Part shown: positions 1-64,000 of the stretch, piece after piece
Layout of the letters: every line of letters begins with the position of its first letter
Numbering within the stretch: the first letter of the stretch is position 1
Assembly (NCBI GenBank): GCA_026709025.1
Contig: JAPOTT010000011.1
Span: forward strand, 128-64,127
Length of the DNA stretch: 64,000 nucleotides
Direction of reading: 5' to 3'
Source: a bacterium
Lineage (GTDB): Bacteria; Actinomycetota; Acidimicrobiia; Acidimicrobiales; Bin134
Position numbers and translations under genes: made by a program
Notes under the pieces: generated by a model
Databases searched by the model: none
Told to the model about the DNA's origin: nothing
Seen by the model: the letters and a program-made list of their open reading frames with translations, nothing else

Positions 1-200
1 AAACCAGCTTGCGTGCTGAGATTGCCGCAGTCGAAACTAGTTTGCGTGCTGAGATGCAGGCTGGGTTCGCTGAGATTAACGCTGTGCTGCTCGATCACAA
101 TGCTGTGCTGCTTGACCACACAGACCGGCTCGCCCGCATTGAAACTGCCCTCGGCTTGCCGCGCCCCGTTGCGACCAACTCAACCCTCACCAACCCCTAA
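1..200 (+). CDS. Small coiled-coil protein, 5'-truncated by the window edge; same family as the genes at 55819, 56255, 60915 and 61476
   Basis: Frame is open from base 3. It encodes 11-aa repeats (TSLRAEIAAVE/TSLRAEMQAGF), a 7-aa repeat (NAVLLDH x2), HTDRLARIETAL and a Pro/Thr tail. Confidence 0.75.
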   Translation, partial: TSLRAEIAAVETSLRAEMQAGFAEINAVLLDHNAVLLDHTDRLARIETALGLPRPVATNSTLTNP

Positions 201-8449: not shown

Positions 8450-9597
8450 TGGCACTAGCGCCTGTGGTAGCCAACGGTGTTCAACACCGCCGCCGCCAGA
8501 TCATTGGTTGGGTGCTGTTTGGGTTGTTGGTGGCGCTGATCCCGTTCCTTATTGCTGATACCTATAGCCCCACTATTTTTGGTAACCGTTACACGGTTGG
8601 TTTGGGCAACCTTAGCCACGCCATAGCCTTGATGGTAGCCATTTTGGGTCTCAACATTGCTACTGGTTATAGCGGGCAGCTTTCTTTGGGGCACAGCTTT
8701 TTTGTGGGTTCGGGAGCGTACTTAACTGCTGTGCTGGTGAACGACTTTCACTGGTCTTACTTCTCCACTTTGGTGGTGGTAGTGCCAGCGCTGTTTTTGT
8801 TTGGGGTTGTGTTTGGGCTGCCTGCGTTGCGTATTCAGGGCCTTTATTTGGGTTTGTTAACCTTTGCTGTGGGGGCGGTGTTCCCATCCATCGTTCGCTT
8901 AGAGGAGATAGCCGACCGTACTGGTGCTAGCAACGGTTTGTTGATCGATAGCGATTTAGTTGCACCCTCATGGGCACCCCTAGACACTCTAGCGCGTTGG
9001 TTGCATTCGGTTCCGGGGCTATCAGGGCGTGTACCAGATGGCTTGACATCTCGTCAATCAGAGGCGGTGTACAAGTATTTTTTGTTGATCATCGTGGCGC
9101 TGGGGTGCTTTTGGTTAGTGCGTAACATCTTGGCTGGTCGGGTGGGGCGGGCTTTGATGGCCGTGCGCGATAACCCACTAGGTGCGGCAGCTAACGGCAT
9201 TAATCTACCTGCCTACAAAACCTTGAGCTTTGGGCTCAGCGCGGCGGTGGGAGGGGTTGCAGGAACAATGTATGCCATGCAATCCGGGTTTTTGGGGCCT
9301 GATGAGTTTGGCTTCAACCTAGCAATCTTGTTGATAGTAGGGATGATTGTGGGAGGCTCAGCCACCCTGCATGGTGCTGTTGCGGGAGGGCTAGTAATTC
9401 AGTTTGTGCCACACTGGGCTAGCCAAACTCAAACCGTGCCCGGCACCGACATAGCTCTGCAAGGACCTTATGGTGGAGTGATTTTGGGTGCGTTGTTGGT
9501 GGCTATCGTTTTTGCCTTGCCGGGTGGTGCAGCTACTGGTTTTGGCAGGATCAAAGCGCGTCTTATGCCTGTGGTACACCAACCACCGCACCGTTAG
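8446..9597 (+). CDS. livM: HAAT ABC transporter permease, LivM-like
   Basis: GLNIATGYSGQLSLGH, GRALMAVRDNP, IVGG; multiple TM helices. Confidence 0.9.
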   Translation: MMALAPVVANGVQHRRRQIIGWVLFGLLVALIPFLIADTYSPTIFGNRYTVGLGNLSHAIALMVAILGLNIATGYSGQLSLGHSFFVGSGAYLTAVLVNDFHWSYFSTLVVVVPALFLFGVVFGLPALRIQGLYLGLLTFAVGAVFPSIVRLEEIADRTGASNGLLIDSDLVAPSWAPLDTLARWLHSVPGLSGRVPDGLTSRQSEAVYKYFLLIIVALGCFWLVRNILAGRVGRALMAVRDNPLGAAANGINLPAYKTLSFGLSAAVGGVAGTMYAMQSGFLGPDEFGFNLAILLIVGMIVGGSATLHGAVAGGLVIQFVPHWASQTQTVPGTDIALQGPYGGVILGALLVAIVFALPGGAATGFGRIKARLMPVVHQPPHR

Positions 9598-9751
9598 ATG
9601 TGTTTTGGTAGGTGATCTGAGAAAGCTAGGTGCTCATCACACGGTGGGGGCTTGGGTTGCAAAGTTGGCTCAGGGTGAAATTGTCGCTGCGATAGCGTAG
9701 AGTAGGTTGGCCTCGTCAAATGGCGCGGCAGCCTTAAGAGGGGAAGTGCCC

Positions 9752-11236
9752 ATGGCGAAGTCTTGGCGAACCTTGTTTGTGTTATTGCTCTGTTTAGCGC
9801 TGGTTGCTGCTGGTTGCGGTAACGATGATGATAACGATGCCAGCCCCCCTGCTGGGCAAGTGCCCACTGGCGAAGCCAATCCCACAGCTGAGGCAACAGC
9901 CATGGCCACTGAGCAAGCACCTGCTACAGAACCTGAGCCCACAGAGATGGCTACCGAGAGCCCAGAGCCTGAGCCCACAGCCATGGCCGACACACCTGCT
10001 GAACCTGCTGACCCAAACATAATTGAGCTGGGTGGAGGGGCCGCTATCAACTTGGCCGACTGCCCCGCTGAGTGGGAAAACAACACGGGCCTTACCGATA
10101 GCCAAATTAGATTTGGCATTAGCTTGCCGCAATCAGGCCCTGCTGGGGGTTTTGGAACCATAGCTGAGGGCATGAGCCTCTATTTTGCAGATCAAGAGCC
10201 CATTGATGGTCGTGAGGTTGTGATTGATGCGCGAGACGATGGCTATGTGCCTGCTCGCACAAAGGTGAACGTGGAAGAGATGATTGATGCTGCCAACTTG
10301 TTGGGGTTTGTGGGCATTTTGGGAAGTCCCAACAACAAAGCGGTGCATGAAGAGCTAAACGACAACTGCATTCCGCAGTTGCTCAACCTAACCGGTTTGC
10401 CCCAATGGGGCGACCCAAACAACTTCCCGTGGACTTCTGGCGGGTTGATGTCTTATGAAACCGAAGCGTTTGTGTGGTGCCAACACATCGCAGATGAGTT
10501 TGGCGAAGGAGCTACTGCTGCTGTTTTAGCGCTGGGCAATGATGCTGGTGAAGCCTGGCTGGGGGGCTTTCAAGATTGCGCTGGTGATTACGGCATTGAG
10601 GTGGTGGATGAGCAGAGCCACGATCCGCAAGCCGACGGTGTGGGAAGCAACATAACCACTTTGGCCGCTAGCGGCGCAGACGTGTTGGTTATTGCTTCCA
10701 CTGGGGCCTTTTGTCCACAGTCGGTTGCTGCTGCTGCGGTGCTTGAATGGGATCCGCTTATTTTGGTGGCTAATGGATGTCAGAGCATCGCGTTGTTCTG
10801 GAACCCGATTGGGCCTTTGGCCAATGGAATCCGCATGATCAACACCCAAAAGGATGTGTCCGATTCTTCTCTGGCAGATGATGAGTGGGTGCAGTGGGTA
10901 CGAGGTTCGTTGGAGGGTGCCGGGGTTGATCCTGAGGCTGCCTCTCACGCCTTGGGCTACGGCTTTGCTGAGATTCTCCACGAAGTGCTGCTAGCGGCTA
11001 ATGAGATGGACGGTGGTATCAACCGTACCAACGTGATGCAAGCCATGTGGCAGGTGGATTTTGAGGCACAAGGTGCCATTGGCAACTCCCTTCGCAAGAT
11101 GGACGGTGCAACCGACTCTTATTTGGTGGAAGCTGGTCGCATGGAAGAGTTGGTGGTAGATGCTGACGGAGCGCGCTATGTACCGGTTAGTGAGCTAATC
11201 AACCTTGAGGGCGAAACCGGCACTTTCGGCGGTTAA
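9752..11236 (+). CDS. HAAT-family ABC substrate-binding lipoprotein
   Basis: SD (AAGAGGGGA) before ATG 9752; lipobox LVAAGC; acidic Pro/Thr linker; SLPQSGP, DDGYVP, GILGSPNN. Confidence 0.85.
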   Translation: MAKSWRTLFVLLLCLALVAAGCGNDDDNDASPPAGQVPTGEANPTAEATAMATEQAPATEPEPTEMATESPEPEPTAMADTPAEPADPNIIELGGGAAINLADCPAEWENNTGLTDSQIRFGISLPQSGPAGGFGTIAEGMSLYFADQEPIDGREVVIDARDDGYVPARTKVNVEEMIDAANLLGFVGILGSPNNKAVHEELNDNCIPQLLNLTGLPQWGDPNNFPWTSGGLMSYETEAFVWCQHIADEFGEGATAAVLALGNDAGEAWLGGFQDCAGDYGIEVVDEQSHDPQADGVGSNITTLAASGADVLVIASTGAFCPQSVAAAAVLEWDPLILVANGCQSIALFWNPIGPLANGIRMINTQKDVSDSSLADDEWVQWVRGSLEGAGVDPEAASHALGYGFAEILHEVLLAANEMDGGINRTNVMQAMWQVDFEAQGAIGNSLRKMDGATDSYLVEAGRMEELVVDADGARYVPVSELINLEGETGTFGG

Positions 11237-31085: not shown

Positions 31086-31178
31086 GGAGGTGTCTGAGTA
31101 CCTGGTGGGCTCCCCCGCCTTCAAAGCGGGTGGGACGGGCGACCCCCGTCCGGCGGGTTCGATTCCCGTCCACCTCCG
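31086..31178 (+). tRNA. selC: tRNA-Sec (UCA)
   Basis: 93 nt; anticodon arm CCCGC-CTTCAAA-GCGGG; long variable arm GGACGGG-CGACC-CCCGTCC; G discriminator; selA and selB are in the window. Confidence 0.95.
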
Positions 31179-31198
31179 CGCACCTAGCTGTTGGGGTG

Positions 31199-52942: not shown

Positions 52943-53016
<74 letters not shown>

Positions 53017-53072
53017 CCCGCAGTGCTTGTCTCGTGTTTGTCCTTAGAGGGCATACGGGTATCCTGTCGGCT

Positions 53073-55703
53073 ATGAGGTTGCGCTCCATTTGTTTGAGTG
53101 TCGGTGTCGCTGTAGCACTGTTAGCACCCACCTTTGTCGTTCCTGTGGCGTTGGCTCAATCCAACAACGATCCTCCCGACGCTGATGCCGGGTTAGATTA
53201 TGCCGTTACCCCAGGCCAAGACACCACCGGCAAGCTAGATGCATCTAACACCTTCGACACCGAAGATAGAGCCAACGAACTTGCCTATTCTTGGAAACCC
53301 ATCACCGATGCATATAGCTGGATTGAAGTAATACCGAGGGGCAGCCCTCGAGGTCGCACCGCAGAATTTGATGTGCCCCCTCTCAAACTCGTCAACCAAC
53401 GAGGCGTTTATCACATAGATTTTGAACTCACCGTTGTAGACACAGACGGAGCCTCTAGCACCGATATAATCCGCGTAACCCTCAACCAGCCTCCCCAAGC
53501 TCAGATAGCCTTGTCGGCTAAGCTCCCGCATCCCAATCCCACAGATGCCAACCAAAACGGTGTGATAGATGACGAAGAGAAGTACACGGTTGACGCTGTT
53601 ATAGATGCCCCACTTGAAGGTGGCAATGATGCCAACGATTGGGACATCCAAGAAGGCGCCCGTCTCACCCTCACCGGTTCATCAAGCACCTCGGGTGAGG
53701 AAAACCCAAAGCTCACCTACACTTGGGAGCGTCGTGCGGTCCGTCCCAACAACTTACCTGTTTTCGCCAACAGCCCTGCTCGCACACGGCGGCAGTCCAT
53801 TACCATTGATCTGCCAGACACCCTTCAAAATAATGCCACAGCTTATGTGCAGTATCGTCTGGTTGTTACCAATCAAAGCGGTGTAACAGATAGCGCGCTC
53901 GTTAACATCACCGTGCGCGATCAACCCTCAGCTCCTACCGTGCAGGTGTCGCTGCGTAGCGCTAATCAGCCAGCTCAGGTTGCCTATCAAGTTGATCCAA
54001 ACCAGCTAAACCAGCCAGCCCGCTTTGTGGTAGCTCCGGGCCAAGCGGTACAGCTCATCGCCACAGCCGAAGACAAAGACGGCACCCAAACTCGCCGCTT
54101 GTCTCACCTCTGGGCTGCTGGTGATACAGGCCAAGCAGCAGCTATCCAACTAACGCAGGTTGCTCCCACACGCAGAGGCGCTACCTCTCGCGCCACCTAC
54201 ACTGCCCCCGCGCAGCTTCCAGAAGATACCAGTGCCGTTACCCAAACCCTCACCGTCACCGTTACAGACGACACCGAACGAACGGCCCAAACCACAGTTA
54301 CCTTCATAACCGCCAACAACCAAGCCCCTCAAGCTGTAGCTCCAGCCAACATAATCAGCGAGGACGGTGCTCAAGGTGGTGATGATCAATCAGGCACAGT
54401 GCAGGTTCGTGGCCTTGGTATCGACTCTGCAGACGACACCCTCACCTACCAGTGGCGCTTTGTGGATGCTCAAGGCAACCTTCTAGACCCTACAGATGCA
54501 CCAGTTACCCTTGTTGATCCAACCCAACCAACCACCTCATTTGATGTTCCAGAACTTCGCGGCGGTAACTTGCTAGTGCATCTTCAACTAGTCGTTACCG
54601 ATTCGTGGGGTGTGTTTGATACCGACACTGTTACCATCACCATTTTTGGCCGCAACGATGCTCCTACTGCCAGCGCTGGTGCTAATCAAACCGTTGTAAC
54701 CCGAACTCAGGTAACTTTAGATGCCACAGCCTCCACAGACCCAGACCCAAACGAACAACTTAACTACTCTTGGGCCTACACCGGTATTACCCTCAATCCC
54801 CCAGCACGTGTCACTCCGCTAACTCCCCAAGACAGCAACGATCTCAGAGCCTTTTGGCCAACTGCCAATAACGAATATCCTACAGTGCTCACTTCTGCGC
54901 GCTCGGTAAAGCCCACCTTCTTAGCTCCCAAATTCACCCACCTGCGAAGCGTGCGCCTCACCTTCACGCTTACCGTTACAGATTCAGCTAACAGCACTAG
55001 CCAAGACGAAGTTCACATCACTGTGGTAGGCCGTTTCTTCTCTGGTGAAATTGACCACCCAGATTTTTGCCGTAACAAGAGCCTCGGCGGTCAGCGCACC
55101 TACCCTCACGACAGCACTAAAGATGGTGTGGCTGATGTGTGTTCTTTACGATCTACCCGTCGCGAGGCTGTGGTTCGTCAGCAAGCTCTTACTACTTTGG
55201 CTAGTATCAATCGTGGCGACTTTGTGAGACAGGTCAACCAAGCCTGCAGAGGTATCGGCGACGAGGACTATACCCAGTATGGTGATAAACCTGAGGATCT
55301 AAAGAAGGATGTGTGCTCTACCGGCCAGATAGCCGCACCGCCAGAACCCCCCAATCCAGAAGCCAACCCAAAGTTTTATTCTGGCCCTGTTATCACCGGT
55401 CCCAACTTCTGTGTCAACTTCAGTTTGGGTGGTGCGCTTACCTATCCCCATGATGGCGATGGTGATGGCATCGCCGAGGTCTGTGCCCTTCCATATACCC
55501 GTCGTGAGGCTGTGGCTCGTCAGATAGCCCTAGATACCTTTGCATCGCATTCTCAGTTTCGAGGTCTGCTCGCTGTGTCTTGTCAGGCAAGCGCAGGTAC
55601 ACAGTTCGGAGGTGACAAACCCGAAGATCTGAAAACGGATGTTTGTGCCACAATCGCCTCAACCACTTCCCAAGAACGCACAGGCACCGCTCTCCCGTCT
55701 TAG
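53073..55703 (+). CDS. Large secreted protein 1: PKD/Ig-like beta-sandwich repeats plus two C-terminal 4-Cys DxDGDG domains
   Basis: Sec signal MRLRSICLSVGVAVALL..ALA; NDAPTASAGANQTV..VTLDATASTDPD, LTYQW, FTLTVTD repeats; TATCCT -10 box 7 nt before the ATG. Confidence 0.8.
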   Translation: MRLRSICLSVGVAVALLAPTFVVPVALAQSNNDPPDADAGLDYAVTPGQDTTGKLDASNTFDTEDRANELAYSWKPITDAYSWIEVIPRGSPRGRTAEFDVPPLKLVNQRGVYHIDFELTVVDTDGASSTDIIRVTLNQPPQAQIALSAKLPHPNPTDANQNGVIDDEEKYTVDAVIDAPLEGGNDANDWDIQEGARLTLTGSSSTSGEENPKLTYTWERRAVRPNNLPVFANSPARTRRQSITIDLPDTLQNNATAYVQYRLVVTNQSGVTDSALVNITVRDQPSAPTVQVSLRSANQPAQVAYQVDPNQLNQPARFVVAPGQAVQLIATAEDKDGTQTRRLSHLWAAGDTGQAAAIQLTQVAPTRRGATSRATYTAPAQLPEDTSAVTQTLTVTVTDDTERTAQTTVTFITANNQAPQAVAPANIISEDGAQGGDDQSGTVQVRGLGIDSADDTLTYQWRFVDAQGNLLDPTDAPVTLVDPTQPTTSFDVPELRGGNLLVHLQLVVTDSWGVFDTDTVTITIFGRNDAPTASAGANQTVVTRTQVTLDATASTDPDPNEQLNYSWAYTGITLNPPARVTPLTPQDSNDLRAFWPTANNEYPTVLTSARSVKPTFLAPKFTHLRSVRLTFTLTVTDSANSTSQDEVHITVVGRFFSGEIDHPDFCRNKSLGGQRTYPHDSTKDGVADVCSLRSTRREAVVRQQALTTLASINRGDFVRQVNQACRGIGDEDYTQYGDKPEDLKKDVCSTGQIAAPPEPPNPEANPKFYSGPVITGPNFCVNFSLGGALTYPHDGDGDGIAEVCALPYTRREAVARQIALDTFASHSQFRGLLAVSCQASAGTQFGGDKPEDLKTDVCATIASTTSQERTGTALPS

Positions 55704-55818: not shown

Positions 55819-56106
55819 ATGGAATCAGTTTTAAGTTCGTCCATCGTGGGCGCATTCTTAGCCGTCCTGATCGGCTATGTGATCTACACAGTGCGCGACA
55901 AGTTCGACAAGGTGGATGCTCGCTTCGACAAGCTGGAAGCCATTCTCTTGAACCATGCAGAGCGCATATCTCTTAACCATGCGGAGCGGTTAGCTCGCAT
56001 TGAAGCGAAGCTAGATATCGTGCCTGCGGTTGCCCCCGTCACTCCGCCCACCGAGTTCGTCGACCCCCCCGAACCAGCCGCACTAACCCAAACCACCTCA
56101 AGCTAA
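55819..56106 (+). CDS. Small N-anchored coiled-coil protein, short variant (95 aa)
   Basis: TM IVGAFLAVLIGYVIY, DKFDKVDARFDKLE, HAERLARIEAKL, Pro/Thr tail. Confidence 0.8.
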   Translation: MESVLSSSIVGAFLAVLIGYVIYTVRDKFDKVDARFDKLEAILLNHAERISLNHAERLARIEAKLDIVPAVAPVTPPTEFVDPPEPAALTQTTSS

Positions 56107-56254
56107 GCCCTTCTCAGCGCAGGACGAGGTTCTTGCCTTGCACCTCCACTAGAGCTTTCCTAAAATTGTCTCTTGCCAAACCTATTTTGGTCGGCTAGGT
56201 TGAGTTCATGCTTCCCCATTTAGTTTCATTCACTAGCACTAAGGGGAATCTCTT

Positions 56255-56833
56255 ATGGAATCAGTTTTAAGTTCGTCCATCGTGGGCGCATTCTTAGCCG
56301 TCCTGATCGGCTATGTGATCTACACAGTGCGCGACAAGTTCGACAAGGTGGATGCTCGCTTCGACAAGCTGGAAGCCATTCTCTTGAACCATGCAGAGCG
56401 CATATCTCGCATTGAGACCATTCTTGTTAGCCAAGAGAACCAGTTAGCAGCGATTGATGCCCGCTTCCAAGCGATTGATGTCCGCTTCCAAGCGATTGAT
56501 GTCCGCTTCCAAGCGATTGATGCCCACTTCCAAGCGATTGATGCCCGTTTTCAGGAGGTCAATGCTCATCTCGATAACATTGAGGCGACGCTCGCCGACC
56601 ATGGTGAGCGCCTTATTCGTATTGAGGTCACCCTGACGAATCACGATGCCCGCTTCGATACAATCGATGTCCGTTTGAATAAGGTGGAAGTCATTCTCTT
56701 TAATCATGCGGAGCGGTTAGCTCGCATTGAAGCGAAGCTAAATATCGTGCCTGTGGTTACTCCTGTCACCCCGCCCACCGAGTTCGTCGATCCCCCCGAA
56801 CCAGCCGCACTAACCCAAACCACCTCAAGCTAA
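56255..56833 (+). CDS. Small N-anchored coiled-coil protein, long variant (192 aa)
   Basis: Same N- and C-termini as 55819; extra 97 aa including the AID(A/V)RFQ heptad x5. Confidence 0.85.
   Translation: MESVLSSSIVGAFLAVLIGYVIYTVRDKFDKVDARFDKLEAILLNHAERISRIETILVSQENQLAAIDARFQAIDVRFQAIDVRFQAIDAHFQAIDARFQEVNAHLDNIEATLADHGERLIRIEVTLTNHDARFDTIDVRLNKVEVILFNHAERLARIEAKLNIVPVVTPVTPPTEFVDPPEPAALTQTTSS
56450..56554 (+). repeat. 21-bp coding tandem repeat x5
   Basis: gcgattgatg(c/t)ccgcttccaa units, each encoding exactly one heptad. Confidence 0.95.
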
Positions 56834-57284
56834 GCCCTTCTCACTAGCTCACTAGCCCCCCCTAGCGCCACACAACCCCGGCACCGGACAAACCCAGCCG
56901 TGCTGACCCGTCGTTAGACATCACGTCAACTTGCGCTTGTGTGTCTGCAGCTACGCACCTCTCATAACAAACATCTGCAACGGGTCGGTGGATGAGCACA
57001 TGGCCCGATCCTCAAGCTCACCTGGATCCTCAAGCTCGCACCACCCAAACCTGCAACCTCCCCAAACTGCCCTACCGCTAGTCCCATACATGTTGCCGCA
57101 CTACACCCTTGCTGCCTTCCAATGTGAGGGCTACAGATGCTAGTTTCAGTACCCTTGAGGACATCTTCCGTATGGCTACTCACACCCCTGCGGTGCCCCC
57201 TCAAAATTGGCCCCTAAATTTCTTCTCAAAAAAATTGTCTTACTGTGTTTGAAATTGGTGCCGCAACCTGCAAGACTTACCGAA

Positions 57285-57354
57285 GCACTGAGTCAGGGTC
57301 GGCTCAGTGTCACTAAGCGGGCTGTTCGGCCCACTAGCACCACATGGTGCTAGT
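57285..57354 (+). promoter_or_regulatory. Three adjacent hairpins upstream of large secreted protein 2
   Basis: gcactgagtc/ggctcagtgt (10 bp, 2 GU), gggct/ggccc, actagcacc/ggtgctagt (9 bp perfect). Confidence 0.45.
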
Positions 57355-57396
57355 CATCTGATATAGTTTCAACATCCAGGCCCGTCTGATAGAAAG

Positions 57397-60300
57397 TTGT
57401 CCATGATTATGCTTCACTCGGTTTGGTCCGGCGAAGAGAGTGCTAACGCTCGTCGGAAAGTCATGACCATGTTGGCAGTGCTGGCTTTGCTAGCAAGTGT
57501 CCTGATGTGGGCCACCCCCCAAGCAGCGGCGCAGAGTGGTAATGATGTGGTAGCTGTTACGGCTACTGTTAGTAGGTCATCAGATGACGCTAGTGCTACT
57601 GATGAGGTGACTGTTGAAGCGGGTCAGCGGGTTTATCTTGATGGAACGGCGACTCTTATTAACGGTGATGATCCTCCAGCTACTTCTTATAAGTGGGAGA
57701 TAGCCGATGGCCCTTATGATTGGTTGACTATTAATCAGGACGCAGAGACGTCCACAGATAATGATAGTGATATAGAAGCTAGTTTTTTGTTGCCTAATCA
57801 GAATTATGTTGATGGTGTAACTGGTAGTGACGATCAGAAGTATAAGATTCAGGTTACTTTGACTGCGACGCGTAATGGTTCTTCAGAGAGTGATACTGTG
57901 ACTATCACGATTGCTCGTCCGCCTGTTGCTGATATTACGGTTTTTGCTGGTTTGCCTGATTCGGCTTTTGCAGATGATGTGAATGCAACTTTTGAAGAAA
58001 TCTTTGGTGAGGATGCGATTATTGATGGGCCTGGTGAGAACGGTAACCGTGATAATGAGTGGGATATTCGTGAGAAGGCTTATCTCCGGTTGGATGGTTC
58101 TGGGAGTACTGTGCCTGGTGGGAAAGTAGATCGTTATCGGTGGGAACGGCTTTCGCCACCTAACCTGCCTACCGGTGTTACGCTTACTTCTGCTCCTATC
58201 ATTTCTGGTCCTTTAGCAGATACCGACATTAATCCTATTTTTGTGGCTGGTAATAACGATTTTACTGCTGAGGCTGCTTCTGGTACTTACACTATTCTTC
58301 CTGATCTAAATGCTGGCGAAATTTCTGTTAAGCGGTTGACTTTGATTTATCAGTTGTCTGTGCAGTCTGGAGGGGGTACGGCTAAGACTTCTCGGGTTCG
58401 TATTGTGGTGCATGATAGTCCTGCTGAAGCAGATCCGATTGGTGTGAGTGTTAGTTTGGCTGCGGGTAGTCAGGGAAGCGCTCCTCAGTCTACTTTGTCT
58501 GCTTTGAATGGTGGGGTTGAGAATCAGTATCTTGTGAGTGCTGGTTCGGTAGTTCAGTTCACTGTGACTGGTTTGTTGAATGAGAAACTTACTTGGACGG
58601 GTGCTACTGCGAGAGGTGATGTTGATCTATTGCCTCCTAATAATCCTGATGGTACTGATGATAGTGGTACTGCTACTCGTAGGGTTCCTTCTGGTGTGAC
58701 TGCTGGTACTACTTATGATGTGACTGTCACTGATGGTGATCGCACTACGACGGTTCAGTTGTTGGTTGGTGCTAATCAGGTGCCTACTGCTAGTCCGATT
58801 GCTGGTGTTAGTCTTGCCGAAGGTCAGACTTTGGATAGGATTTCTGCTGGTCAGTTTGATTTAGCTGTGTTGAGTGTGAATGATGGCGTGCAGTCAAATA
58901 GTAAGCCGATCACTTTGCGTGGTGTGGGTAACGATCCTGATGGTGGCGCGATAATTCAGGCTTGGACGTTGCGTCATGTGCCTGCTGACAGTGAGTCTGC
59001 TGTGTTGGGTGCGATTGATACTTGGCTTGACCCTGATGGTAATAATAAGTCAACAGCAGGAAATGGTGATGTAGCTGGAGTGGTTGGCCCTGTTCTGCTT
59101 CAGTTGTCAGCTGATGATCCAGCTGATCCTCTAGTTGAGTTGATTAATCCGATTGGTGATGGTGAGGTGTCTTTTGAGGTGCCCCAGGTTAGAGCAGATA
59201 CTGGGGTGTTCCTTACCTATTCGGTGGTTGATTCGGCGAATGTTCTTGCAGCTAGGGTGTTGTACCTGCGTATTGAAGCTGATGATGATAAGCCGGTGGC
59301 TAATGCTGGTACTGGTCAGCAGGTTGCTTCTGGTGCGTTTGTTCGTCTAGATGGTTCTGGTAGTGCTGATCCTGATCCTGGTGACAGTATTGCTGGTAGC
59401 CATAGTTGGACTTATGTTGGTGCCAATATGAGTCCTCTGCCTGATGCACGTAGGGCTTTGTCTGATGCGGAGATTGGCCAGTTAGACGGTTGGGTGCTCC
59501 GCCAGGTTACGACTGATAATCCTTTACCTGATGGGGATACTCGTAAAACCTTTAAGGATTCCGAAGGCAATGATTATGTTTACATTGTTGATGCTAAGGG
59601 TGATTTAGTTGCTAGCGAAGTTCCTGAAGGTGGGCATACAGGTAAATTGATGGAATCAGGTTCTGCTTACCCGTATTTCACTGCGCCTAAGTTAACTGGT
59701 TTCAATAATCTTGGTCTTACGTTCCATTTGACTGTTACTGATGGGCAAGGAACCACTACCGGGGATGATCCTACTGCTGATGATGATAAGTCAGATCCGT
59801 CTCCTGTGACTATTACTGTGGCTCGGGTTGCTAGTAATGAGTTTTATAGTGGTGTGATTACTGGCCCTGGTTTTTGTACTAATCTGGCGTTTGGTGGGCC
59901 GATGTTGTTTGCGCATGATGGTGATGGTGATGGTGTTGCGGAGACTTGTTCTTTGAACACTACTCGTCGTGCGACTATTGCCCGTCAGAATGCTTTGGAG
60001 GCTATCGCTGCGTTGAATCCAACTGCTTTGGATAATGCGATAGACGCTGAGTGTGGGAAACTTGTTGCTGGTAATGCTAGTTATGAGGGTGATGAGCCTG
60101 CTGATTTAGCTGGTGATGCTTGCGCTGATGCTAGTAACCCGGTTGCGGTTATTCCTGTGTTGAGTGGTGCGACTGCGTATGGGCCTACGGTTAATGGTCC
60201 TGCGTTTTGTTCTAACTTTAGCCTTGGCGGGCCGATCATGTATCCGTATGATTCTGATGGTGATGGTGTGTACGATATTTGTTCGTTGAACAGTACTCGC

Positions 60301-60714
60301 CGTGAAGCAGTAGCACGCCAAACAGCTCTAGCCATCTCCTTTGAGGTGTCGTTTAGTGCTGGTGATCAGACTCGTCACGATGAGTTGGTTGAGTTGCGTG
60401 AGCTTCAAGAACTAGGTGATGATCGAACTGACGATCAGGACACCCGGCATATTGATCTTATCACGAAGTATGAAGGCGGTTTTACCGATAGCACTGACGG
60501 TGCGTTAGATAGTGATGAGATCATTGCTTTGTCAGCAGAGATTGATAGTCTTGCTGCTGCTAAGTCTGCTGCTGCTCGTTATGCTAATGCTTTGGCTGCG
60601 GCGTGTCGTGCGTTGGCTGGTCAAGTCTTTGAGGGTGATAAGGCTGCTGATCTTGCAACAGATGAGTGTGTGCGGCCTACTACTTCTGGTATTGCGCTTC
60701 CGTCTGGTAGCTAA
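57397..60714 (+). CDS. Large secreted protein 2 (paralog of 53073)
   Basis: Signal peptide RRKVMTMLAVLALLASVLMWATPQAAA; KPVANAGTGQQVASGAFVRLDGSGSADPD PKD motif; two C-terminal 4-Cys domains; ends GIALPSGS. Confidence 0.85.
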   Translation: MSMIMLHSVWSGEESANARRKVMTMLAVLALLASVLMWATPQAAAQSGNDVVAVTATVSRSSDDASATDEVTVEAGQRVYLDGTATLINGDDPPATSYKWEIADGPYDWLTINQDAETSTDNDSDIEASFLLPNQNYVDGVTGSDDQKYKIQVTLTATRNGSSESDTVTITIARPPVADITVFAGLPDSAFADDVNATFEEIFGEDAIIDGPGENGNRDNEWDIREKAYLRLDGSGSTVPGGKVDRYRWERLSPPNLPTGVTLTSAPIISGPLADTDINPIFVAGNNDFTAEAASGTYTILPDLNAGEISVKRLTLIYQLSVQSGGGTAKTSRVRIVVHDSPAEADPIGVSVSLAAGSQGSAPQSTLSALNGGVENQYLVSAGSVVQFTVTGLLNEKLTWTGATARGDVDLLPPNNPDGTDDSGTATRRVPSGVTAGTTYDVTVTDGDRTTTVQLLVGANQVPTASPIAGVSLAEGQTLDRISAGQFDLAVLSVNDGVQSNSKPITLRGVGNDPDGGAIIQAWTLRHVPADSESAVLGAIDTWLDPDGNNKSTAGNGDVAGVVGPVLLQLSADDPADPLVELINPIGDGEVSFEVPQVRADTGVFLTYSVVDSANVLAARVLYLRIEADDDKPVANAGTGQQVASGAFVRLDGSGSADPDPGDSIAGSHSWTYVGANMSPLPDARRALSDAEIGQLDGWVLRQVTTDNPLPDGDTRKTFKDSEGNDYVYIVDAKGDLVASEVPEGGHTGKLMESGSAYPYFTAPKLTGFNNLGLTFHLTVTDGQGTTTGDDPTADDDKSDPSPVTITVARVASNEFYSGVITGPGFCTNLAFGGPMLFAHDGDGDGVAETCSLNTTRRATIARQNALEAIAALNPTALDNAIDAECGKLVAGNASYEGDEPADLAGDACADASNPVAVIPVLSGATAYGPTVNGPAFCSNFSLGGPIMYPYDSDGDGVYDICSLNSTRREAVARQTALAISFEVSFSAGDQTRHDELVELRELQELGDDRTDDQDTRHIDLITKYEGGFTDSTDGALDSDEIIALSAEIDSLAAAKSAAARYANALAAACRALAGQVFEGDKAADLATDECVRPTTSGIALPSGS
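59806..60046. repeat. 241-bp near-identical inverted block (partner 62743-62983) within the large paralogs
   Basis: Manual alignment found one synonymous mismatch (TTGAAT/TTAAAT). Confidence 0.85.
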
Positions 60715-60757
60715 CTTTTAGAGAGTTTCAGGTTTAGCCTGGACAACCCAAACCACC

Positions 60758-60792
60758 GGGGCCCGGCCCTCCCACAAGGGGGGCCGGGCCCC
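60758..60792 (+). terminator. GC-rich hairpin after large protein 2
   Basis: ggggcccggccctcc-cacaa-ggggggccgggcccc (15-bp stem), followed within about 15 nt by a long T-rich tract. Confidence 0.75.
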
Positions 60793-60875
60793 ACCGCGTT
60801 AACCGTTATTTCTTCTTTTAGTGTTCTTCTGCTTAGTTATTTGTTTTTATTATTTTTCAATATTTTCAACAAATT

Positions 60876-60908
60876 AGGGTTGCAAACCCTCCACGCACTT
60901 TGTATTGT
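60876..60908 (+). promoter_or_regulatory. Sigma-70 promoter of the small gene, with an AT-rich UP element and a palindrome over the -35 box (mirror copy 61947-61979)
   Basis: TTGCAA-17 nt-TATTGT, ATG 6 nt downstream (leaderless); AGGGTT-gca-AACCCT overlaps the -35 box. Confidence 0.6.
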
Positions 60909-60914
60909 TATCTC

Positions 60915-61349
60915 ATGACCGGTTTTGAACTAGCCCAGTTCATCGCAATCATGCTGTCGTTGATGGGCATTGTCTTACACCAACAAAGAAGTAACTGGTA
61001 CCAACAACGAAGCATCGACCAGCTCCGCTCCGATATGAACGCTGGTTTCGCTGAAGCCCGCGCCGACCGCCAAGCCATCCGCAACGAGATAAACCAACGC
61101 TTAGCCGAGGCCCGTAGAGAAACCACACAAGGGTTTTCCGATGCTCAGGCTGCATTAGACAAAGCCCGCACCGAAAGCCGCGATGGGCTAGATACCCTAC
61201 ACTCTGACACTAACAAGAGTTTCCAACAGGTGTGGGCCGAACTATACAAAATAGTTCAACGCTTAGTCCGCATAGAAAGCCGCCTAAAAATCGAACCACC
61301 CCCAGAAGACTCCACTCCACCCCCCGCTACTACTCCACCAACGCCATAA
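60915..61349 (+). CDS. Small N-anchored coiled-coil protein (144 aa)
   Basis: TM FIAIMLSLMGIVL, helical repeats, RLVRIESRLKI, Pro-rich tail. Confidence 0.8.
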   Translation: MTGFELAQFIAIMLSLMGIVLHQQRSNWYQQRSIDQLRSDMNAGFAEARADRQAIRNEINQRLAEARRETTQGFSDAQAALDKARTESRDGLDTLHSDTNKSFQQVWAELYKIVQRLVRIESRLKIEPPPEDSTPPPATTPPTP

Positions 61350-61475
61350 CCTCACCGATAGAATACGAACACTCCTAATCTAAAAAATTCACTCTCCACA
61401 AAATCACACTTTGGCCTACAGACCTTGCTCAGGTGAGTGTTGAGTTTGATACAAGTTGAGGGGTTAGGTTATGGT

Positions 61476-61940
61476 TTAGGATTGGTTTGATCCTTCGGAG
61501 GGTGGTCCAATTTTTAGGCGACTTTCAATGCGAATAAGGCGTTGAGCAACCTTGGATAGTGCAGCCCACACCTGTCGGAACCCCCGATTTGTTTCAACAC
61601 GATGCACTTCCATCGTATTACGGATTTCCGCAAAACAATTATTAGTTTCTTTACGAGCCTCATCGAAGCGCTGGTTAGTATCAGAGCGTAGGGTATCTAG
61701 CCCATCGCGACTTTCAGTGCGGGCTTTGTCTAAAGCAGCCTGGGCATTAGAAAAGCGTTGGTTTATCTCGTTGCGGATGGCTTGGCGGTCGGCGCGGGCT
61801 TCAGCGAAACCAGCGTTCATATCGGAGCGGAGCTGGTCGATGCTTCGTTGTTGGTACCAGTTACTTCTTTGTTGGTGTAAGACAATGCCCATCAACGACA
61901 GCATGATTGCGATGAACTGGGCTAGTTCAAAACCGGTCAT
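61476..61940 (-). CDS. Small N-anchored coiled-coil protein (154 aa), inverted paralog of 60915
   Basis: First 62 codons identical to 60915; RLIRIESRLKI. Confidence 0.8.
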   Translation of the reverse strand: MTGFELAQFIAIMLSLMGIVLHQQRSNWYQQRSIDQLRSDMNAGFAEARADRQAIRNEINQRFSNAQAALDKARTESRDGLDTLRSDTNQRFDEARKETNNCFAEIRNTMEVHRVETNRGFRQVWAALSKVAQRLIRIESRLKIGPPSEGSNQS

Positions 61941-62281
61941 GAGATAACAATACAAAGTGCGTGGAGGGTTTGCAACCCTAATTTGTTGAAAATATTGAAA
62001 AATAATAAAAACAAATAACTAAGCAGAAGAACACTAAAAGAAGAAATAACGGTTAACGCGGTGGGGCCCGGCCCCCCTTGTGGGAGGGCCGGGCCCCGGT
62101 GGTTTGGGTTGTCCAGGCTAAACCTGAAACTCTCTAAAAGTTAGCTACCAGACGGAAGCGCAATACCAGAAGTAGTAGGCCGCACACACTCATCTGTTGC
62201 AAGATCAGCAGCCTTATCACCCTCAAAGACTTGACCAGCCAACGCACGACACGCCGCAGCCAAAGCATTAGCATAACGAGC
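61753..62281. repeat. Right arm of the 529-bp inverted repeat
   Basis: Reverse complement of 60574-61102. Confidence 0.93.
62063..62097 (-). terminator. GC-rich hairpin after large protein 3 (copy of 60758-60792)
   Basis: Same 15-bp stem on the minus strand. Confidence 0.75.
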
Positions 62282-64000
62282 CGCATTAGCTGCAGCTATC
62301 GCTTCAAGCTCGCTAATCTCTTTAGCAACAGCAGCAGTCAGGTCGTCGCCAGTCAAAGCATTCCCATCACCATCATTGATAATAACTGGAGTGTCGTCAT
62401 GAGCCTTCAAATCAGCTAGCCTACCCATCTCTCTTGGTGTCAAAGCATCCTCAAAGGTGGCTAGAGCTGCTTGGCGTGCTACTGCTTCACGGCGAGTGCT
62501 GTTCAACGAACAAATATCGTACACACCATCACCATCAGAATCATGCGGATACATGATCGACCCACCAAGGCTCCGGTTAGTGCAAAACGCAGGACCAGTA
62601 ACCACAGGCCCATACTGAGTAGCACCACTCAACACAGGAATAACCGCAACCGGGTTACTAGCATCATCGCAAGCATCATTAGCTAAATCAACAGGCTCAT
62701 CACCATAACTAGCATTAGCAGCAACAAGGCGCTTGCACTCATCGTCTATCGCATTATCCAAAGCAGTTGGATTTAACGCAGCGATAGCCTCCAAAGCATT
62801 CTGACGGGCAATAGTCGCACGACGAGTAGTGTTCAAAGAACAAGTCTCCGCAACACCATCACCATCACCATCATGCGCAAACAACATCGGCCCACCAAAC
62901 GCCAGATTAGTACAAAAACCAGGGCCAGTAATCACACCACTATAAAACTCATTACTAGCAACCCGAGCCACAGTAATAGTCACATCAGCAGTAGCAAATT
63001 CTGCGACCCCATCATCAGACTCACCATCTTTCAACGCTACACCATTAATCTCAGAAGCACTGCTATCAGCACTATCTGTCACAGTGAGACGGAACTTGAG
63101 ACTAATGTTGTTAAAACTAGTCAACTTAGGAGCAGTAAAATATGGATAACGAGAAGCTACACCCTTCAAATGAGCTGGTGTGTTATCTTTGTTGTCTAGC
63201 AAATCACCAGCAGCGTTAACTATCCACACATAATGCTTACCAGCAGAATCTTGGAATCTCCCTGCCGCTGGATCATTATCTGTAGCCTCCCGCAGCACCC
63301 AACCATTCAGCTCCTTGATCTCCGCATCAGACAAAGCCCTACGAGCATCAGGAAGCGGACTCATAGTAGCACCAACATAAATCCAACTATGACTAGCAAT
63401 ACTATCATCAGGATCAGGATCAGCGCTAGCAGAACCATTCAGGCGGACACGCGAACCAGAAGCAACTTGCTGATTAGCACCAGCATTAGCTACCGGCTTA
63501 TCATCCTCGGCAGTGACATGAATGTACACAGGCTGTGCGGCAACAACATGAGCTGAATCCACAACAGAGTACAAAAGAATAAAACCAGTGTTCTCTCTTA
63601 CTTCTGGCACCTCAAAAGAAACCTCACCATCACCAAGCGGGTTAATAAGTGTCACCAAAGGATCAGACGGATCATCAAGCTCCCCTAAGCGATTATAAAA
63701 ACCAGCTATATCGCCAGCTTTAGTAAGATCAGGAGTATCACCTACTAAATCTTCAACATCTGAATTCAAATTGTTTGCATCATCACCAGCAAACTGCCGC
63801 AAAGTCCAAGCTTGAATTATCGCGCCACCATCAGGATCATTGCCTACACCACGCAAAGTGATTAAAGCGCCACCTTTTTGTTTTCCATCACGGACACTGA
63901 AAACAGGAATGCCTGGAATACTTGATGCAGAGTCAAGATTACTATCCCCAATGCTAGCAGAAATCCCACCAGCAGTAGGCGCTTGATTAGTGCCAACTAA
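62141..64000 (-). CDS. Large secreted protein 3 (paralog of 57397), 5'-truncated by the window edge
   Basis: Frame is open to 64000 (LVGTNQAPTAGG...ITLRGVGNDPDGGAIIQAWTLR); same PKD motif, two 4-Cys domains and identical C-terminus. Confidence 0.88.
   Translation of the reverse strand, partial: LVGTNQAPTAGGISASIGDSNLDSASSIPGIPVFSVRDGKQKGGALITLRGVGNDPDGGAIIQAWTLRQFAGDDANNLNSDVEDLVGDTPDLTKAGDIAGFYNRLGELDDPSDPLVTLINPLGDGEVSFEVPEVRENTGFILLYSVVDSAHVVAAQPVYIHVTAEDDKPVANAGANQQVASGSRVRLNGSASADPDPDDSIASHSWIYVGATMSPLPDARRALSDAEIKELNGWVLREATDNDPAAGRFQDSAGKHYVWIVNAAGDLLDNKDNTPAHLKGVASRYPYFTAPKLTSFNNISLKFRLTVTDSADSSASEINGVALKDGESDDGVAEFATADVTITVARVASNEFYSGVITGPGFCTNLAFGGPMLFAHDGDGDGVAETCSLNTTRRATIARQNALEAIAALNPTALDNAIDDECKRLVAANASYGDEPVDLANDACDDASNPVAVIPVLSGATQYGPVVTGPAFCTNRSLGGSIMYPHDSDGDGVYDICSLNSTRREAVARQAALATFEDALTPREMGRLADLKAHDDTPVIINDGDGNALTGDDLTAAVAKEISELEAIAAANAARYANALAAACRALAGQVFEGDKAADLATDECVRPTTSGIALPSGS

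What the first reader, a model, noticed from the sequence alone, without database searches (positions are those of the whole stretch)
55819..61940. Family of small N-anchored coiled coils with an RhxxhE trimerisation motif and His-containing layers
Seen: four complete members here plus the fragment at 1-200. Complete members share an N-terminal TM helix and a variable-length coiled coil; all have a terminal RL(A/V/I)RIE and a Pro/Thr tail. Established: R-h-x-x-h-E is a known trimer-specifying motif of short parallel coiled coils. Seen: the long variant repeats (N/D)H-x-x-R-h-x-R-I-E three times (NHAERISRIE, DHGERLIRIE, NHAERLARIE). Inference: trimeric membrane stalks whose His triads could bind metal. 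The topology is the reverse of CCDC90/Bdr/XhlA-like proteins, which are anchored at the C-terminus.
Basis: partly seen in the sequence, partly recalled or inferred. Interest (0 to 1): 0.7.

Follow-up and report, generated by a model that had tools for sequence, protein, structure and literature searches.

The report
Sponge-symbiont membrane-anchored coiled-coil stalk family
The window carries five genes of an undescribed, many-copy family found almost only in sponge-dwelling actinobacteria: small proteins with one membrane anchor, a helical rod whose length changes by gain and loss of short repeats, and a nearly invariant end piece (LLDHTDRLARIE). They are probably cell-envelope stalks, but how many chains assemble and whether they bind metal are untested.

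Summary
The window encodes four complete small proteins (95, 192, 144 and 154 aa) and the last 65 residues of a 196-aa one. Each has one hydrophobic helix, then a single long helix, then R-L-x-R-I-E and a short proline-rich tail. That motif occurs 7 times in the six-frame translation, against 0.9 expected, and only in these genes.

They belong to a real, unnamed family:
- 218 clusters (50% identity) match at E<=1e-10.
- No Pfam, NCBIfam or PHROG model reaches its cutoff.
- Named relatives are all "hypothetical protein", almost all from sponge-type Acidimicrobiia (Ca. Poriferisodalis, Ca. Poriferisocius).
- Genomes hold up to 13 or more copies, often in tandem and usually beside large secreted proteins.
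- Rod length varies between paralogues and between strains.
- The membrane helix and end module are conserved through synonymous change.

His sits at core position d in 90% of members. The window's two type B genes have Val or Ile there.

A trimer is plausible: four strict in-register R-h-x-x-h-E motifs, and weak PDB matches mostly to parallel trimers. It is unproven, and the Leu/Phe-a, Ile/Val-d core also fits a tetramer. Metal binding remains speculative. Topology is N-in/C-out for most members and ambiguous for the window's short-N types. This is a new variant of a known kind, of moderate interest.

The parts
3..200 (+). 3' end (last 65 codons plus stop) of a long-N family member, cut by the contig start. 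Ends ...LLDHNAVLLDHTDRLARIETALGLPRPVATNSTLTNP.
   Evidence: Identical to the C-terminus of the 196-aa protein P0252. Scores 68.3 bits against the independent family profile.
55819..56106 (+). Type A member, 95 aa: membrane helix, short coil, LNHAERLARIE, Pro/Thr tail. It is a tandem copy of the 192-aa gene with an in-frame loss of 291 nt.
   Evidence: direct repeats D1 at 99% and D4 at 94%. 39.6 bits.
56255..56833 (+). Type A member, 192 aa: membrane helix (residues 4-25), about 136-residue unbroken heptad coil (about 20 nm), four strict R-h-x-x-h-E motifs, four His at d, disordered Pro/Thr tail (162-192).
   Evidence: 95.7 bits.
56449..56547 (+). 21-nt tandem repeat, 4.7 copies, 94% matches, encoding the IDARFQA heptads of the 192-aa gene.
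60915..61349 (+). Type B member, 144 aa from the conserved MTGFEL start (the ORF opens at TTG 60900): membrane helix, hendecad-type coil, VQRLVRIE with Ile at the d position where others have His, Pro-rich tail.
   Evidence: P0103 is a 144-aa relative with the same start. 27.7 bits.
61476..61940 (-). Type B member, 154 aa (the ORF extends to 61955), convergent with the previous gene. One helix 3-142, AQRLIRIE with Val at d, short tail.
   Evidence: (P0102). 42.9 bits.
60570..61113 (.). Left arm of a 544-nt, 99% inverted repeat. The right arm is 61742-62285. Each arm covers the 3' end of a large gene, the spacer and the first ~200 nt of a type B gene, which indicates recent gene conversion or duplication.
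   Evidence: I1.
53073..55703 (+). Large secreted PKD/K319L-domain protein (876 aa from the signal-peptide Met; the longer ORF start overlaps the tRNA). It lies directly upstream of the two type A genes.
57397..60714 (+). Large secreted PKD-domain protein, 1105 aa, directly upstream of type B gene 60915-61349. It is 49% identical to the 1107-aa protein of Ca. Poriferisocius sp., which is likewise followed by type B genes.
62141..64000 (-). Paralogous large secreted protein (619 aa or more, runs off the window), directly upstream of type B gene 61476-61940 on the minus strand.
52943..53018 (+). tRNA-Pro(CGG) at the inner border of the island. G+C falls from about 55% to 47-51% beyond 56 kb.

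Best explanation
The five ORFs are real genes of an undescribed, lineage-restricted family of single-pass membrane proteins.

Architecture. Each protein is one membrane helix followed by one long helix. That helix most likely pairs with identical chains as a parallel coiled-coil rod, with a trimer the most likely state and a tetramer the main alternative. The rod is built from recombination-prone 7-residue units (R-F-x-x-[IV]-D) and 11-residue units. Its length therefore drifts from about 4 to 37 nm between paralogues and strains.

End module. The rod always ends in the unique, non-repetitive module [VI]NA[VI]-L-L-D-H-T-D-R-L-A-R-I-E. I infer that this module is the nucleation ('trigger') and registration site. 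It would fix chain number and register for a rod whose repeats could otherwise pair out of register. The buried His at d would be the polar specificity layer, and the Arg(g)/Glu(e) pair the inter-chain salt bridge.

Topology. In most members the rod lies outside the cytoplasmic membrane. These members have basic residues before the membrane helix and a net acidic flank after it. A short Pro/Thr/His-rich tail sits at the rod tip.

Context and role. The genes lie in variable islands, beside large secreted adhesin-like or wall-associated proteins and sometimes beside Tad pilus genes. The most likely role is therefore a length-variable stalk or fibril layer in the cell envelope of sponge-symbiotic Acidimicrobiia.

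Shown: family membership, architecture, register, conservation, length variation, taxonomic restriction and gene neighbourhood.
Inferred: oligomer state, the trigger function of the end module, extracellular location of the window's short-N types, and the biological role.
For: Family and conservation:
- Independent profile scores of 27.7-95.7 bits for the window proteins, against 7.3 or less for shuffles.
- 218 representatives at E<=1e-10 among 1.84 billion proteins. Of the best 148, 132 have the motif, 129 have it within 45 aa of the C-end, 115 have a membrane helix before it, and none has one after it.
- Logo of 79 members: R0, R3 and E5 at 100% (required by the filter), L1 94%, A2 92%, H-3 90%, L-6 82%.
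- 69 distinct DNA versions of the 12-codon module, using 6, 4 and 2 codons for the invariant R, R and E, and 6 codons for L1.

Structure:
- One helix in both AlphaFold2 models.
- Heptad period of exactly 3.50 over 139 residues in type A. Ten of 20 heptads match [RK]-h-x-x-h-[DE] in one phase. Position a is F/L, d is I/V/H, e is D/E and g is R/K.
- Period 3.63-3.67 in type B and in P0158, a near-identical relative of the window fragment's full-length protein.

Length variation:
- The 95-aa gene equals the 192-aa gene minus 291 nt, and there is a 21-nt tandem array.
- Strain variants of 196, 170, 174 and 176 aa are identical outside the rod.
- Tandem paralogues differ in repeat number.

Topology: long-N members have 2.95 K/R and 1.33 D/E before the membrane helix, and 2.40 K/R and 3.58 D/E after it.

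Distribution: 42 of 44 loci in the species-representative genome collection come from Ca. Poriferisodalis, Ca. Poriferisocius or unnamed Acidimicrobiia, Acidimicrobiales or Microthrixaceae MAGs. Every named hit is a 'hypothetical protein' of such MAGs, apart from one labelled only 'bacterium' and one Gammaproteobacteria MAG.

Context: a large gene lies immediately upstream on the same strand in the window (three times), L001, L021, L052 (Peptidase_S13), L053 (no obvious signal peptide) and L054 (1669 aa, Calx-beta). The product has a signal peptide in the window, L001, L052 and L054, the cases examined. Clusters also lie beside four CW_binding_2 proteins (L047), a protein of more than 2415 aa with fn3 domains (L049), and Tad pilus genes (L048, L050/L051).

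Oligomer hint: weak PDB profile hits are mostly parallel trimers, including coronavirus S2 HR1 ('LNDILSRLDKVE'), Lpp, reovirus sigma-1, HA2 and a short tail fibre. The definition of the motif and its trigger-site dependence are in PMC3653964.
Against: - No expression or protein data.
- Oligomer state is untested. Only monomers could be folded. The core of Leu/Phe at a and Ile/Val at d resembles tetramer-forming model peptides (GCN4-pLI, Phe-Ile zipper; my recollection). [quoted passage not shown]
- The window's own complete members have no basic residue before the membrane helix and have Arg/Lys after it. By the positive-inside rule, their rod could be cytoplasmic.
- The neighbouring large proteins share no common domain across loci, so no docking surface is evident.
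- The genome census used a narrow peptide pattern. The invariance of R, R and E in my logo is partly by construction.
Confidence: 0.55

Rival explanations
1. Metal, anion or pH site. The His at d from each chain forms a buried His3 (or His4) layer that binds Zn, Cu or Ni, or that acts as a pH switch. The proteins would then sense or sequester metal at the cell surface.
For: - His at -3 in 90% of 79 members and in 123 of 148 representatives.
- Always in the context L-x-[ND]-H, four times in the 192-aa protein.
- 21 of 80 tails carry two or more further His, for example AVHNDHAHTHPQL.
- His placed in the core of a designed trimeric coiled coil does coordinate Cu(II) and Ni(II) (PMC6713864).
Against: - Type B members have Val or Ile at this position and keep the rest of the module, so His is dispensable for the fold.
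- A single buried polar layer is a common device for fixing register without any ligand.
- The search pattern allowed only Q or H at this site for the seed hits, which inflates the His count.
- There is no metal-related gene context.
Confidence: 0.15
2. Tether for the neighbouring large exoprotein. The small protein would be the membrane stalk that holds the large secreted protein encoded just upstream, as SlaB holds SlaA in Sulfolobales S-layers.
For: - A large secreted protein followed by a small family gene on the same strand is seen three times in the window, and in L001, L021, L052 and L054.
- The large proteins have signal peptides and no evident anchor of their own.
- slaA and slaB are adjacent and co-transcribed, and SlaB is a roughly 20-nm trimeric coiled-coil stalk (PMC5744192).
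Against: - The upstream proteins are unrelated across loci (PKD, Calx-beta, Peptidase_S13, a deacetylase-like protein without an obvious signal peptide) and share no C-terminal domain.
- Many family genes sit in tandem arrays of 5-6 with no partner each.
- The tail beyond the rod is only 7-39 residues.
Confidence: 0.2
3. Cytoplasmic membrane-tethered coiled coil. This would apply at least to the window's short-N types A and B. The N-terminal helix inserts N-out, and the rod stays inside the cell as a scaffold or regulator.
For: Short-N members have 0.21 K/R before the membrane helix and 3.12 K/R after it. Arg is usually the first residue after the helix.
Against: - The C-flank is equally acidic (3.17 D/E), so its net charge is about zero.
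- Homologous long-N members have a clear N-in signature.
- Pro/Thr-rich tails and the neighbourhood of exported proteins fit an outside location.
Confidence: 0.12
4. Prophage lysis or tail component, such as an XhlA-like protein, an Rz-like spanin or a tail needle.
For: Weak sub-threshold matches: XhlA 15.9-25.1 bits, Rz-like spanin PHROGs at E about 4e-4, tail needle phrog_1219 at 1.5e-5, and PHROGs of unknown function matched through the DARF repeats.
Against: - No relative in 2.9 million viral contigs.
- No phage genes in nine examined neighbourhoods.
- Up to 13 chromosomal copies per genome.
- All matches lie in the repeat region, not in the end module.
Confidence: 0.03

Closest known systems
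CCDC90-like / DUF1640 (PF07798), with Bdr and XhlA (PF10779) as similar small anchored coiled coils
   Same: Small single-pass membrane proteins that are mostly one coiled coil built of short repeats. Sub-threshold profile similarity to family members (27.2 bits in a relative). Proteins sharing the DARF repeats often have this architecture.
   Different: These families are anchored at the C-terminus; here 0 of 148 are. Scores are below the curated cutoffs. None has the LLDHTDRLARIE end module.
R-h-x-x-h-E trimerisation motif of short parallel coiled coils (coronin-1, ccbeta, GCN4p-M3; Kammerer and co-workers, as summarised in PMC3653964)
   Same: The exact sequence pattern with Arg at g and Glu at e, with allowed residues at a and d. 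It occurs 1-4 times per protein in the correct heptad phase.
   Different: This is a motif, not a family. [quoted passage not shown] Here it caps very long rods whose core (L/F at a, I/V at d) differs from the model trimers.
SlaB of Sulfolobales S-layers (and the tetrabrachion stalk)
   Same: A membrane-anchored coiled-coil stalk of about 20 nm, encoded next to a large surface protein gene. The tetrabrachion stalk uses 11-residue repeats, as do type B and the majority type.
   Different: SlaB is archaeal and C-terminally anchored, and it has beta-sandwich domains. No sequence relation was found. No common partner domain is seen here.
Braun lipoprotein Lpp
   Same: A small N-terminally membrane-attached parallel trimeric coiled coil that spans an envelope compartment. 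Weak PDB and Pfam matches.
   Different: Lpp has a lipid anchor, not a membrane helix. It has a fixed length of 56-58 aa and a C-terminal Lys linked to murein. Scores are far below cutoff (20.3 against 29.1).
DUF7310 (PF23991) / DUF2730 (PF10805)-type repeat coiled coils
   Same: They share the D-A-R-F-x-x-[IV] heptad repeat. DUF7310 is the best Pfam match of the 192-aa protein (31.2 bits), and both families are frequent among word-based hits.
   Different: The score is below the cutoff of 40. The match covers only the repeats. The closest relatives with the same architecture (P0004, P0008, P0014) have no Pfam hit on record.

Membership tests
R-h-x-x-h-E trimerisation motif class | Sequence Arg-h(a: I,L,V,M)-x-x-h(d: L,I,V)-Glu | tested here: met
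   RISRIE, RLIRIE, RLNKVE and RLARIE in the 192-aa protein. RLARIE, RLVRIE and RLIRIE in the others. Definition taken from PMC3653964.
R-h-x-x-h-E trimerisation motif class | Arg at heptad position g and Glu at e, within a regular heptad frame | tested here: met
   Period 3.50. All motif starts share one phase. The hydrophobic a/d pattern is continuous through the motif.
R-h-x-x-h-E trimerisation motif class | [quoted passage not shown] | not testable with these tools
   Only single chains can be folded here. Weak PDB hits to trimers are suggestive only.
CCDC90-like (PF07798) | Score at or above Pfam's gathering cutoff of 33.5 bits | tested here: not met
   No hit for the window proteins at E<=1. 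The best relative scores 27.2 bits.
CCDC90-like / Bdr / XhlA architecture | C-terminal membrane anchor | tested here: not met
   The hydrophobic helix precedes the coil in all window members. This holds in 115 of 148 representatives, and none has it after the coil.
XhlA (PF10779) | Score at or above 34.7 bits | tested here: not met
   15.9 bits for the 192-aa protein. 25.1 bits for the helix-less outlier in L009.
DUF7310 (PF23991) | Score at or above 40 bits | tested here: not met
   31.2 bits, in the repeat region only.
DUF948 (PF06103) | Score at or above 37.2 bits | tested here: not met
   20.0 and 17.6 bits in two relatives. None for the window proteins.
Rz-like i-spanin | Phage lysis-cassette context and a significant PHROG match | tested here: not met
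   E of 4e-4 at best, in one relative. No viral contig encodes a relative. No phage neighbours.
SlaB-type S-layer stalk | Gene adjacent to and co-oriented with a large surface-protein gene | tested here: met
   Seen in the window three times, and in L001, L021, L052 and L054.
SlaB-type S-layer stalk | Beta-sandwich domains plus a C-terminal membrane helix; binds its canopy protein | tested here: not met
   There are no domains besides the helix, and the anchor is N-terminal. Binding was not testable. This is an analogy only.
Lpp (PF04728) | Score at or above 29.1 bits and a lipobox | tested here: not met
   20.3 bits in one relative. No lipobox Cys at the N-terminus of the window proteins.

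The most novel reading that the evidence does not exclude
The invariant L-x-D-H-T-D-R-L-A-R-I-E cap could be a natural buried His3 site next to an Arg/Glu clamp, at the tip of an extracellular stalk. The site would bind a transition metal or titrate with pH. That event would zip or unzip a rod of tunable length, so the symbiont would change its surface coat in response to the sponge mesohyl or phagosome. I know of no natural His3-in-coiled-coil switch (from memory, not searched systematically), and it would be a symbiosis-specific surface device.
Probability: 0.1. Interest if true: 0.75.

Novelty: new variant of a known kind. Interest (0 to 1): 0.4.

Why it matters
Sponge symbionts must persist in an animal that feeds by engulfing bacteria, and their surface molecules are largely unknown. 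This family is restricted to that lineage, is present in many copies, varies in length between paralogues and strains, and is encoded among large secreted proteins. It is therefore a concrete candidate for a variable envelope component.

For structural biology it offers a natural series of rods from about 40 to over 250 residues. All of them end in the same 12-residue cap, which has a buried His next to a textbook Arg/Glu motif. That makes it a good test of how repetitive coiled coils find their register and chain number.

The kind of protein is familiar, and no function is shown, so interest is moderate.

Tried and rejected
Searches that found nothing decisive:
- Pfam, NCBIfam and PHROG scans of window and relative proteins. 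Nothing reaches a curated cutoff, and all matches are generic coiled-coil or repeat matches.
- The word-based homologue search with the type B protein found only itself and one close relative. With the 192-aa protein, most hits matched only the DARF repeats.
- The viral contig scan found 40 pattern matches, none of them a relative.
- The profile search against PDB sequences gave only weak hits (best E 6e-6). I did not run a fold search, because a single helix carries no fold information.
- The promoter and terminator scan gave counts at background level, so it does not show whether the small genes are co-transcribed with the large ones.
- I looked for a shared C-terminal docking domain among the upstream large proteins. 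None was found across loci.
- Literature searches for Poriferisodalis, Poriferisocius and PDB entry 7O97 found nothing on this family.
- Earlier-findings look-ups by sequence and by words returned nothing.

As a result there are no whole-genome copy counts, no comparison with free-living relatives by genome search, and no expression or read-level heterogeneity data.

Spurious-ORF reading: rejected. The antisense ORFs across these genes (for example 61552-61947 +, 56444-56707 -) lack any conserved feature. The sense frames keep the membrane helix, the motif and frame-preserving indels across genomes.


Full report
**1. What is in the window**

The region holds four small complete ORFs and one fragment.
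- Type A: 55819-56106 (+, 95 aa) and 56255-56833 (+, 192 aa). Both start MESVLSSSIVGAFLAVLIGYVIY.
- Type B: 60915-61349 (+, 144 aa from the conserved MTGFEL start; the ORF opens at TTG 60900) and 61476-61940 (-, 154 aa; the ORF runs to 61955).
- The ORF running in from the contig start (3-200, +) gives the last 65 residues of a fifth member.

R[LIV]xR[LIV]E occurs seven times in the six-frame translation of the whole 64-kb window. All seven are in these five ORFs, and 0.9 are expected from composition.

AlphaFold2 monomer models give one uninterrupted helix followed by a disordered tail. The helix covers residues 2-161 of the 192-aa protein (pLDDT 84) and 3-142 of the 154-aa protein (pLDDT 82).

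**2. Anatomy of the rods**

In the 192-aa protein, hydrophobic periodicity is exactly 3.50 over 139 residues.
- With Arg49 set to g, position a reads FFLILLFFFFFLLLLFLLLL and position d reads VVLHIQIIIIIVIHIHIVHIV.
- Position e is almost all Asp/Glu, and g is mostly Arg/Lys.
- Ten of the 20 heptads match [RK]-h-x-x-h-[DE], all in one phase.
- Four are strict R-h-x-x-h-E motifs: RISRIE 49, RLIRIE 119, RLNKVE 140 and RLARIE 154.
- Four His (46, 116, 130, 151) occupy d, always as L-x-[ND]-H.

Type B and the majority type have a period of 3.63-3.67 (11-residue units) and switch to heptads only in the end module. Type B has Val or Ile where the others have His.

Estimated rod lengths at 0.148 nm per residue:
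- about 6 nm for the 95-aa protein,
- about 15 nm for the 144-aa protein,
- about 17 nm for the 154-aa protein,
- about 20 nm for the 192-aa protein.

**3. DNA-level dynamics**

- The 95-aa gene is a tandem copy of the 192-aa gene, 436 bp away. It is 99% identical over 269 nt, including 115 nt upstream, and 94% identical over the last 144 nt. It lacks an internal 291 nt, in frame.
- The IDARFQA heptads are a 21-nt tandem array of 4.7 copies.
- A 544-nt, 99% inverted repeat (60570-61113 and 61742-62285) covers the 3' ends of two large genes, the spacers and the first ~200 nt of both type B genes.

**4. It is a real family**

Curated libraries. No Pfam, NCBIfam or PHROG model reaches its cutoff. 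The best scores are DUF7310 at 31.2 against 40, CCDC90-like at 27.2 against 33.5 in a relative, and XhlA at 25.1 against 34.7.

First true relatives. A word-based search with the 192-aa protein found relatives of the same architecture (P0004, P0008, P0014) on a 2.93-Mb chromosome. That locus holds four type A copies of 139-189 aa, a 1107-aa orthologue of the window's 1105-aa protein, and two type B-like genes.

Genome scan. A scan of one genome per prokaryotic species gave 44 loci. Forty-two are from Ca. Poriferisodalis, Ca. Poriferisocius or unnamed Acidimicrobiia, Acidimicrobiales or Microthrixaceae MAGs. The two outliers (L009, L023) encode proteins without a membrane helix, made of DHGxRLxRIE repeats.

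About 80 distinct members lie in these loci, often as 2-6 tandem paralogues. Lower bounds per genome are 13 in OZ242363.1 and 11 in OZ244918.1.

Profile search. A profile of 69 members against 1.84 billion representatives found 3293 hits at E<=1e-3, 218 at E<=1e-10 and 44 at E<=1e-30. Of the best 148:
- 132 have the motif.
- 123 have His three residues before it.
- 129 have it within 45 residues of the C-end.
- 115 have a hydrophobic helix before it, and none has one after it.

Non-circular test. A profile built only from 63 long-N members of other genomes scores the window proteins 95.7, 68.3, 42.9, 39.6 and 27.7 bits. Shuffles reach at most 7.3 bits.

Annotation. All named relatives are 'hypothetical protein'.

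**5. The typical member and the window's subtype**

Most members have this layout:
- a conserved start, M-[AST]-T-I-x-x-V-T-D;
- 40-100 residues of acidic, Ala/Pro-rich sequence;
- basic residues;
- a membrane helix;
- a rod of variable repeats;
- the end module [VI]NA[VI]LLDHTDRLARIE[TA]xL[GD][IV]xP;
- a tail of 7-39 residues (median 14), with 14.5% Pro and 12.7% Thr. Twenty-one of 80 tails have two or more His.

The window fragment is of this type. It is identical to the C-terminus of the 196-aa protein P0252. Near-identical variants of 170, 174 and 176 aa differ only by indels inside the rod, so length varies between strains.

The window's four complete genes are a short-N subtype in which the membrane helix starts at residue 2-4. 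It was seen mainly in loci of Ca. Poriferisocius. In the three Poriferisocius-type loci that carry the large PKD-type proteins (the window, L001/L003, L021), short-N genes lie directly downstream of them.

**6. Conservation pattern**

In 79 members, L1 is 94%, A2 92%, I4 81%, H-3 90%, D-4 78% and L-6 82%. R0, R3 and E5 are 100%, but my filter required them.

The 12-codon module exists in 69 different DNA versions. Six codons are used for R0, four for R3, two for E5, six for L1 and four for A2. The conservation therefore acts on the protein and is not a by-product of recent DNA identity.

His falls on d between Leu(a) at -6 and Leu(a) at +1.

**7. Topology**

Long-N members have 2.95 Lys/Arg and 1.33 Asp/Glu in the 15 residues before the membrane helix. 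They have 2.40 Lys/Arg and 3.58 Asp/Glu after it. That is a clear N-in/C-out signature, which puts the rod outside the membrane.

The 24 short-N members, including the window's, have almost no charge before the helix and a balanced flank after it. Their orientation is open.

**8. Neighbourhood**

The window's island begins right after tRNA-Pro(CGG) (52943-53018), and its G+C is lower. Each small-gene set follows a large secreted PKD-domain protein on the same strand.

The same arrangement, a large gene immediately upstream on the same strand, recurs elsewhere:
- L001, L021 and L054 (1669 aa, Calx-beta).
- L052 (Peptidase_S13).
- L053 (a deacetylase-like protein without an obvious signal peptide).

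Other clusters lie beside four CW_binding_2 proteins (L047), a protein of more than 2415 aa with fn3 domains (L049), or Tad pilus genes with HipA or AbiEii modules (L048, L050/L051).

The large neighbours share no common domain across loci. No viral contig encodes a relative.

**9. How it most likely works**

Shown: a single-pass membrane protein that is one long amphipathic helix with a regular coiled-coil core. The rod evolves by repeat gain and loss, while the anchor and a unique C-terminal cap stay fixed.

Inferred:
- Identical chains pair in parallel.
- The cap is the nucleation and registration site. A rod made of near-identical repeats can otherwise pair out of register, and the R-h-x-x-h-E motif is known to set the oligomer state only when it lies in the trigger site (PMC3653964).
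- The buried His is the polar layer that enforces register.

Chain number. A trimer is favoured by four strict motifs in phase, Arg(g)/acid(e) in most heptads, beta-branched residues at d (disfavoured in dimers), and weak PDB matches that are mostly to parallel trimers. A tetramer is a serious alternative, because Leu/Phe at a with Ile/Val at d is the pattern of tetrameric model peptides (my recollection). My rough odds are trimer 55%, tetramer 25%, other 20%.

Biological role. A length-variable stalk or fibril layer in the envelope is inferred from topology, context and lineage restriction. It is not tested.

**10. The metal idea**

His in the core of a designed trimeric coiled coil does bind Cu(II) and Ni(II) (PMC6713864). 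His-rich tails add possible ligands.

Against this, type B does without His, and there is no metal-related context. I put the probability at about 0.15.

**11. Verdict**

This is an undescribed family that works like known anchored coiled-coil stalks but belongs to none of them. I class it as a new variant of a known kind, with interest 0.4.

Genome-wide copy counts, a direct comparison of host-associated and free-living genomes, and expression data are therefore missing.

Noticed in passing
window 52943-53073: The longest ORF of the 914-aa protein starts inside tRNA-Pro(CGG); its first residues are the tRNA read as protein. The real start is most likely the signal-peptide Met at 53073 (MRLRSICLSVGVAVALLAPTFVVPVALAQ).
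   Followed up: partly
window 54900-55700, 59800-60700, 62150-63000: The three large secreted proteins end in tandem copies of a roughly 95-aa unit with four Cys and an H-D-x-D-G-D-G loop (FCxNxSLGG...YPHDxDGDGxxExCxLxxTRREAxARQxAL). No Pfam or NCBIfam model matched it.
   Followed up: no
window 31086-31179: tRNA-SeC (anticodon TCA) is present, so this actinobacterium uses selenocysteine.
   Followed up: no
L009:1539-2357 and L023:5810-6370: Proteins without a membrane helix, made almost entirely of D-H-G-x-R-L-x-R-I-E units in 11- or 14-residue spacing, occur in an unrelated Actinomycetota MAG and in a Gammaproteobacteria MAG. The latter matches phrog_2542 (unknown function) at 3.6e-13. The His-Arg-Glu unit therefore also exists as a free-standing repeat outside the family.
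   Followed up: partly
L048:1-3025 and L050:12253-18558 (also L051): In two Acidimicrobiia genomes the family clusters lie next to a Tad-type pilus locus (T2SSE, two T2SSF, SAF, Peptidase_A24), together with HipA or AbiEii modules.
   Followed up: no
L001:4633-6270: The Ca. Poriferisocius island carrying four type A copies also holds a 545-aa gene with no Pfam hit that looks transposase/TnpB-like from its sequence (not tested), plus PIN, AbiEii, Fic and an N6/N4 methyltransferase. One family copy (9420-9839) has a degraded N-terminus.
   Followed up: no
L001:16180-16965: A 261-aa type B-like protein is built of about 15 copies of the 11-residue unit GFTEARAEREK and ends in GIARVEGYLEG instead of RLxRIE. 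It does not score against the majority-type profile (7.3 bits), so type B is drifting away from the family cap in that genome.
   Followed up: partly
window 56444-56707 (-), 61552-61947 (+): Long antisense ORFs run across the coiled-coil genes, a side effect of the repeat composition. They could mislead gene callers.
   Followed up: partly
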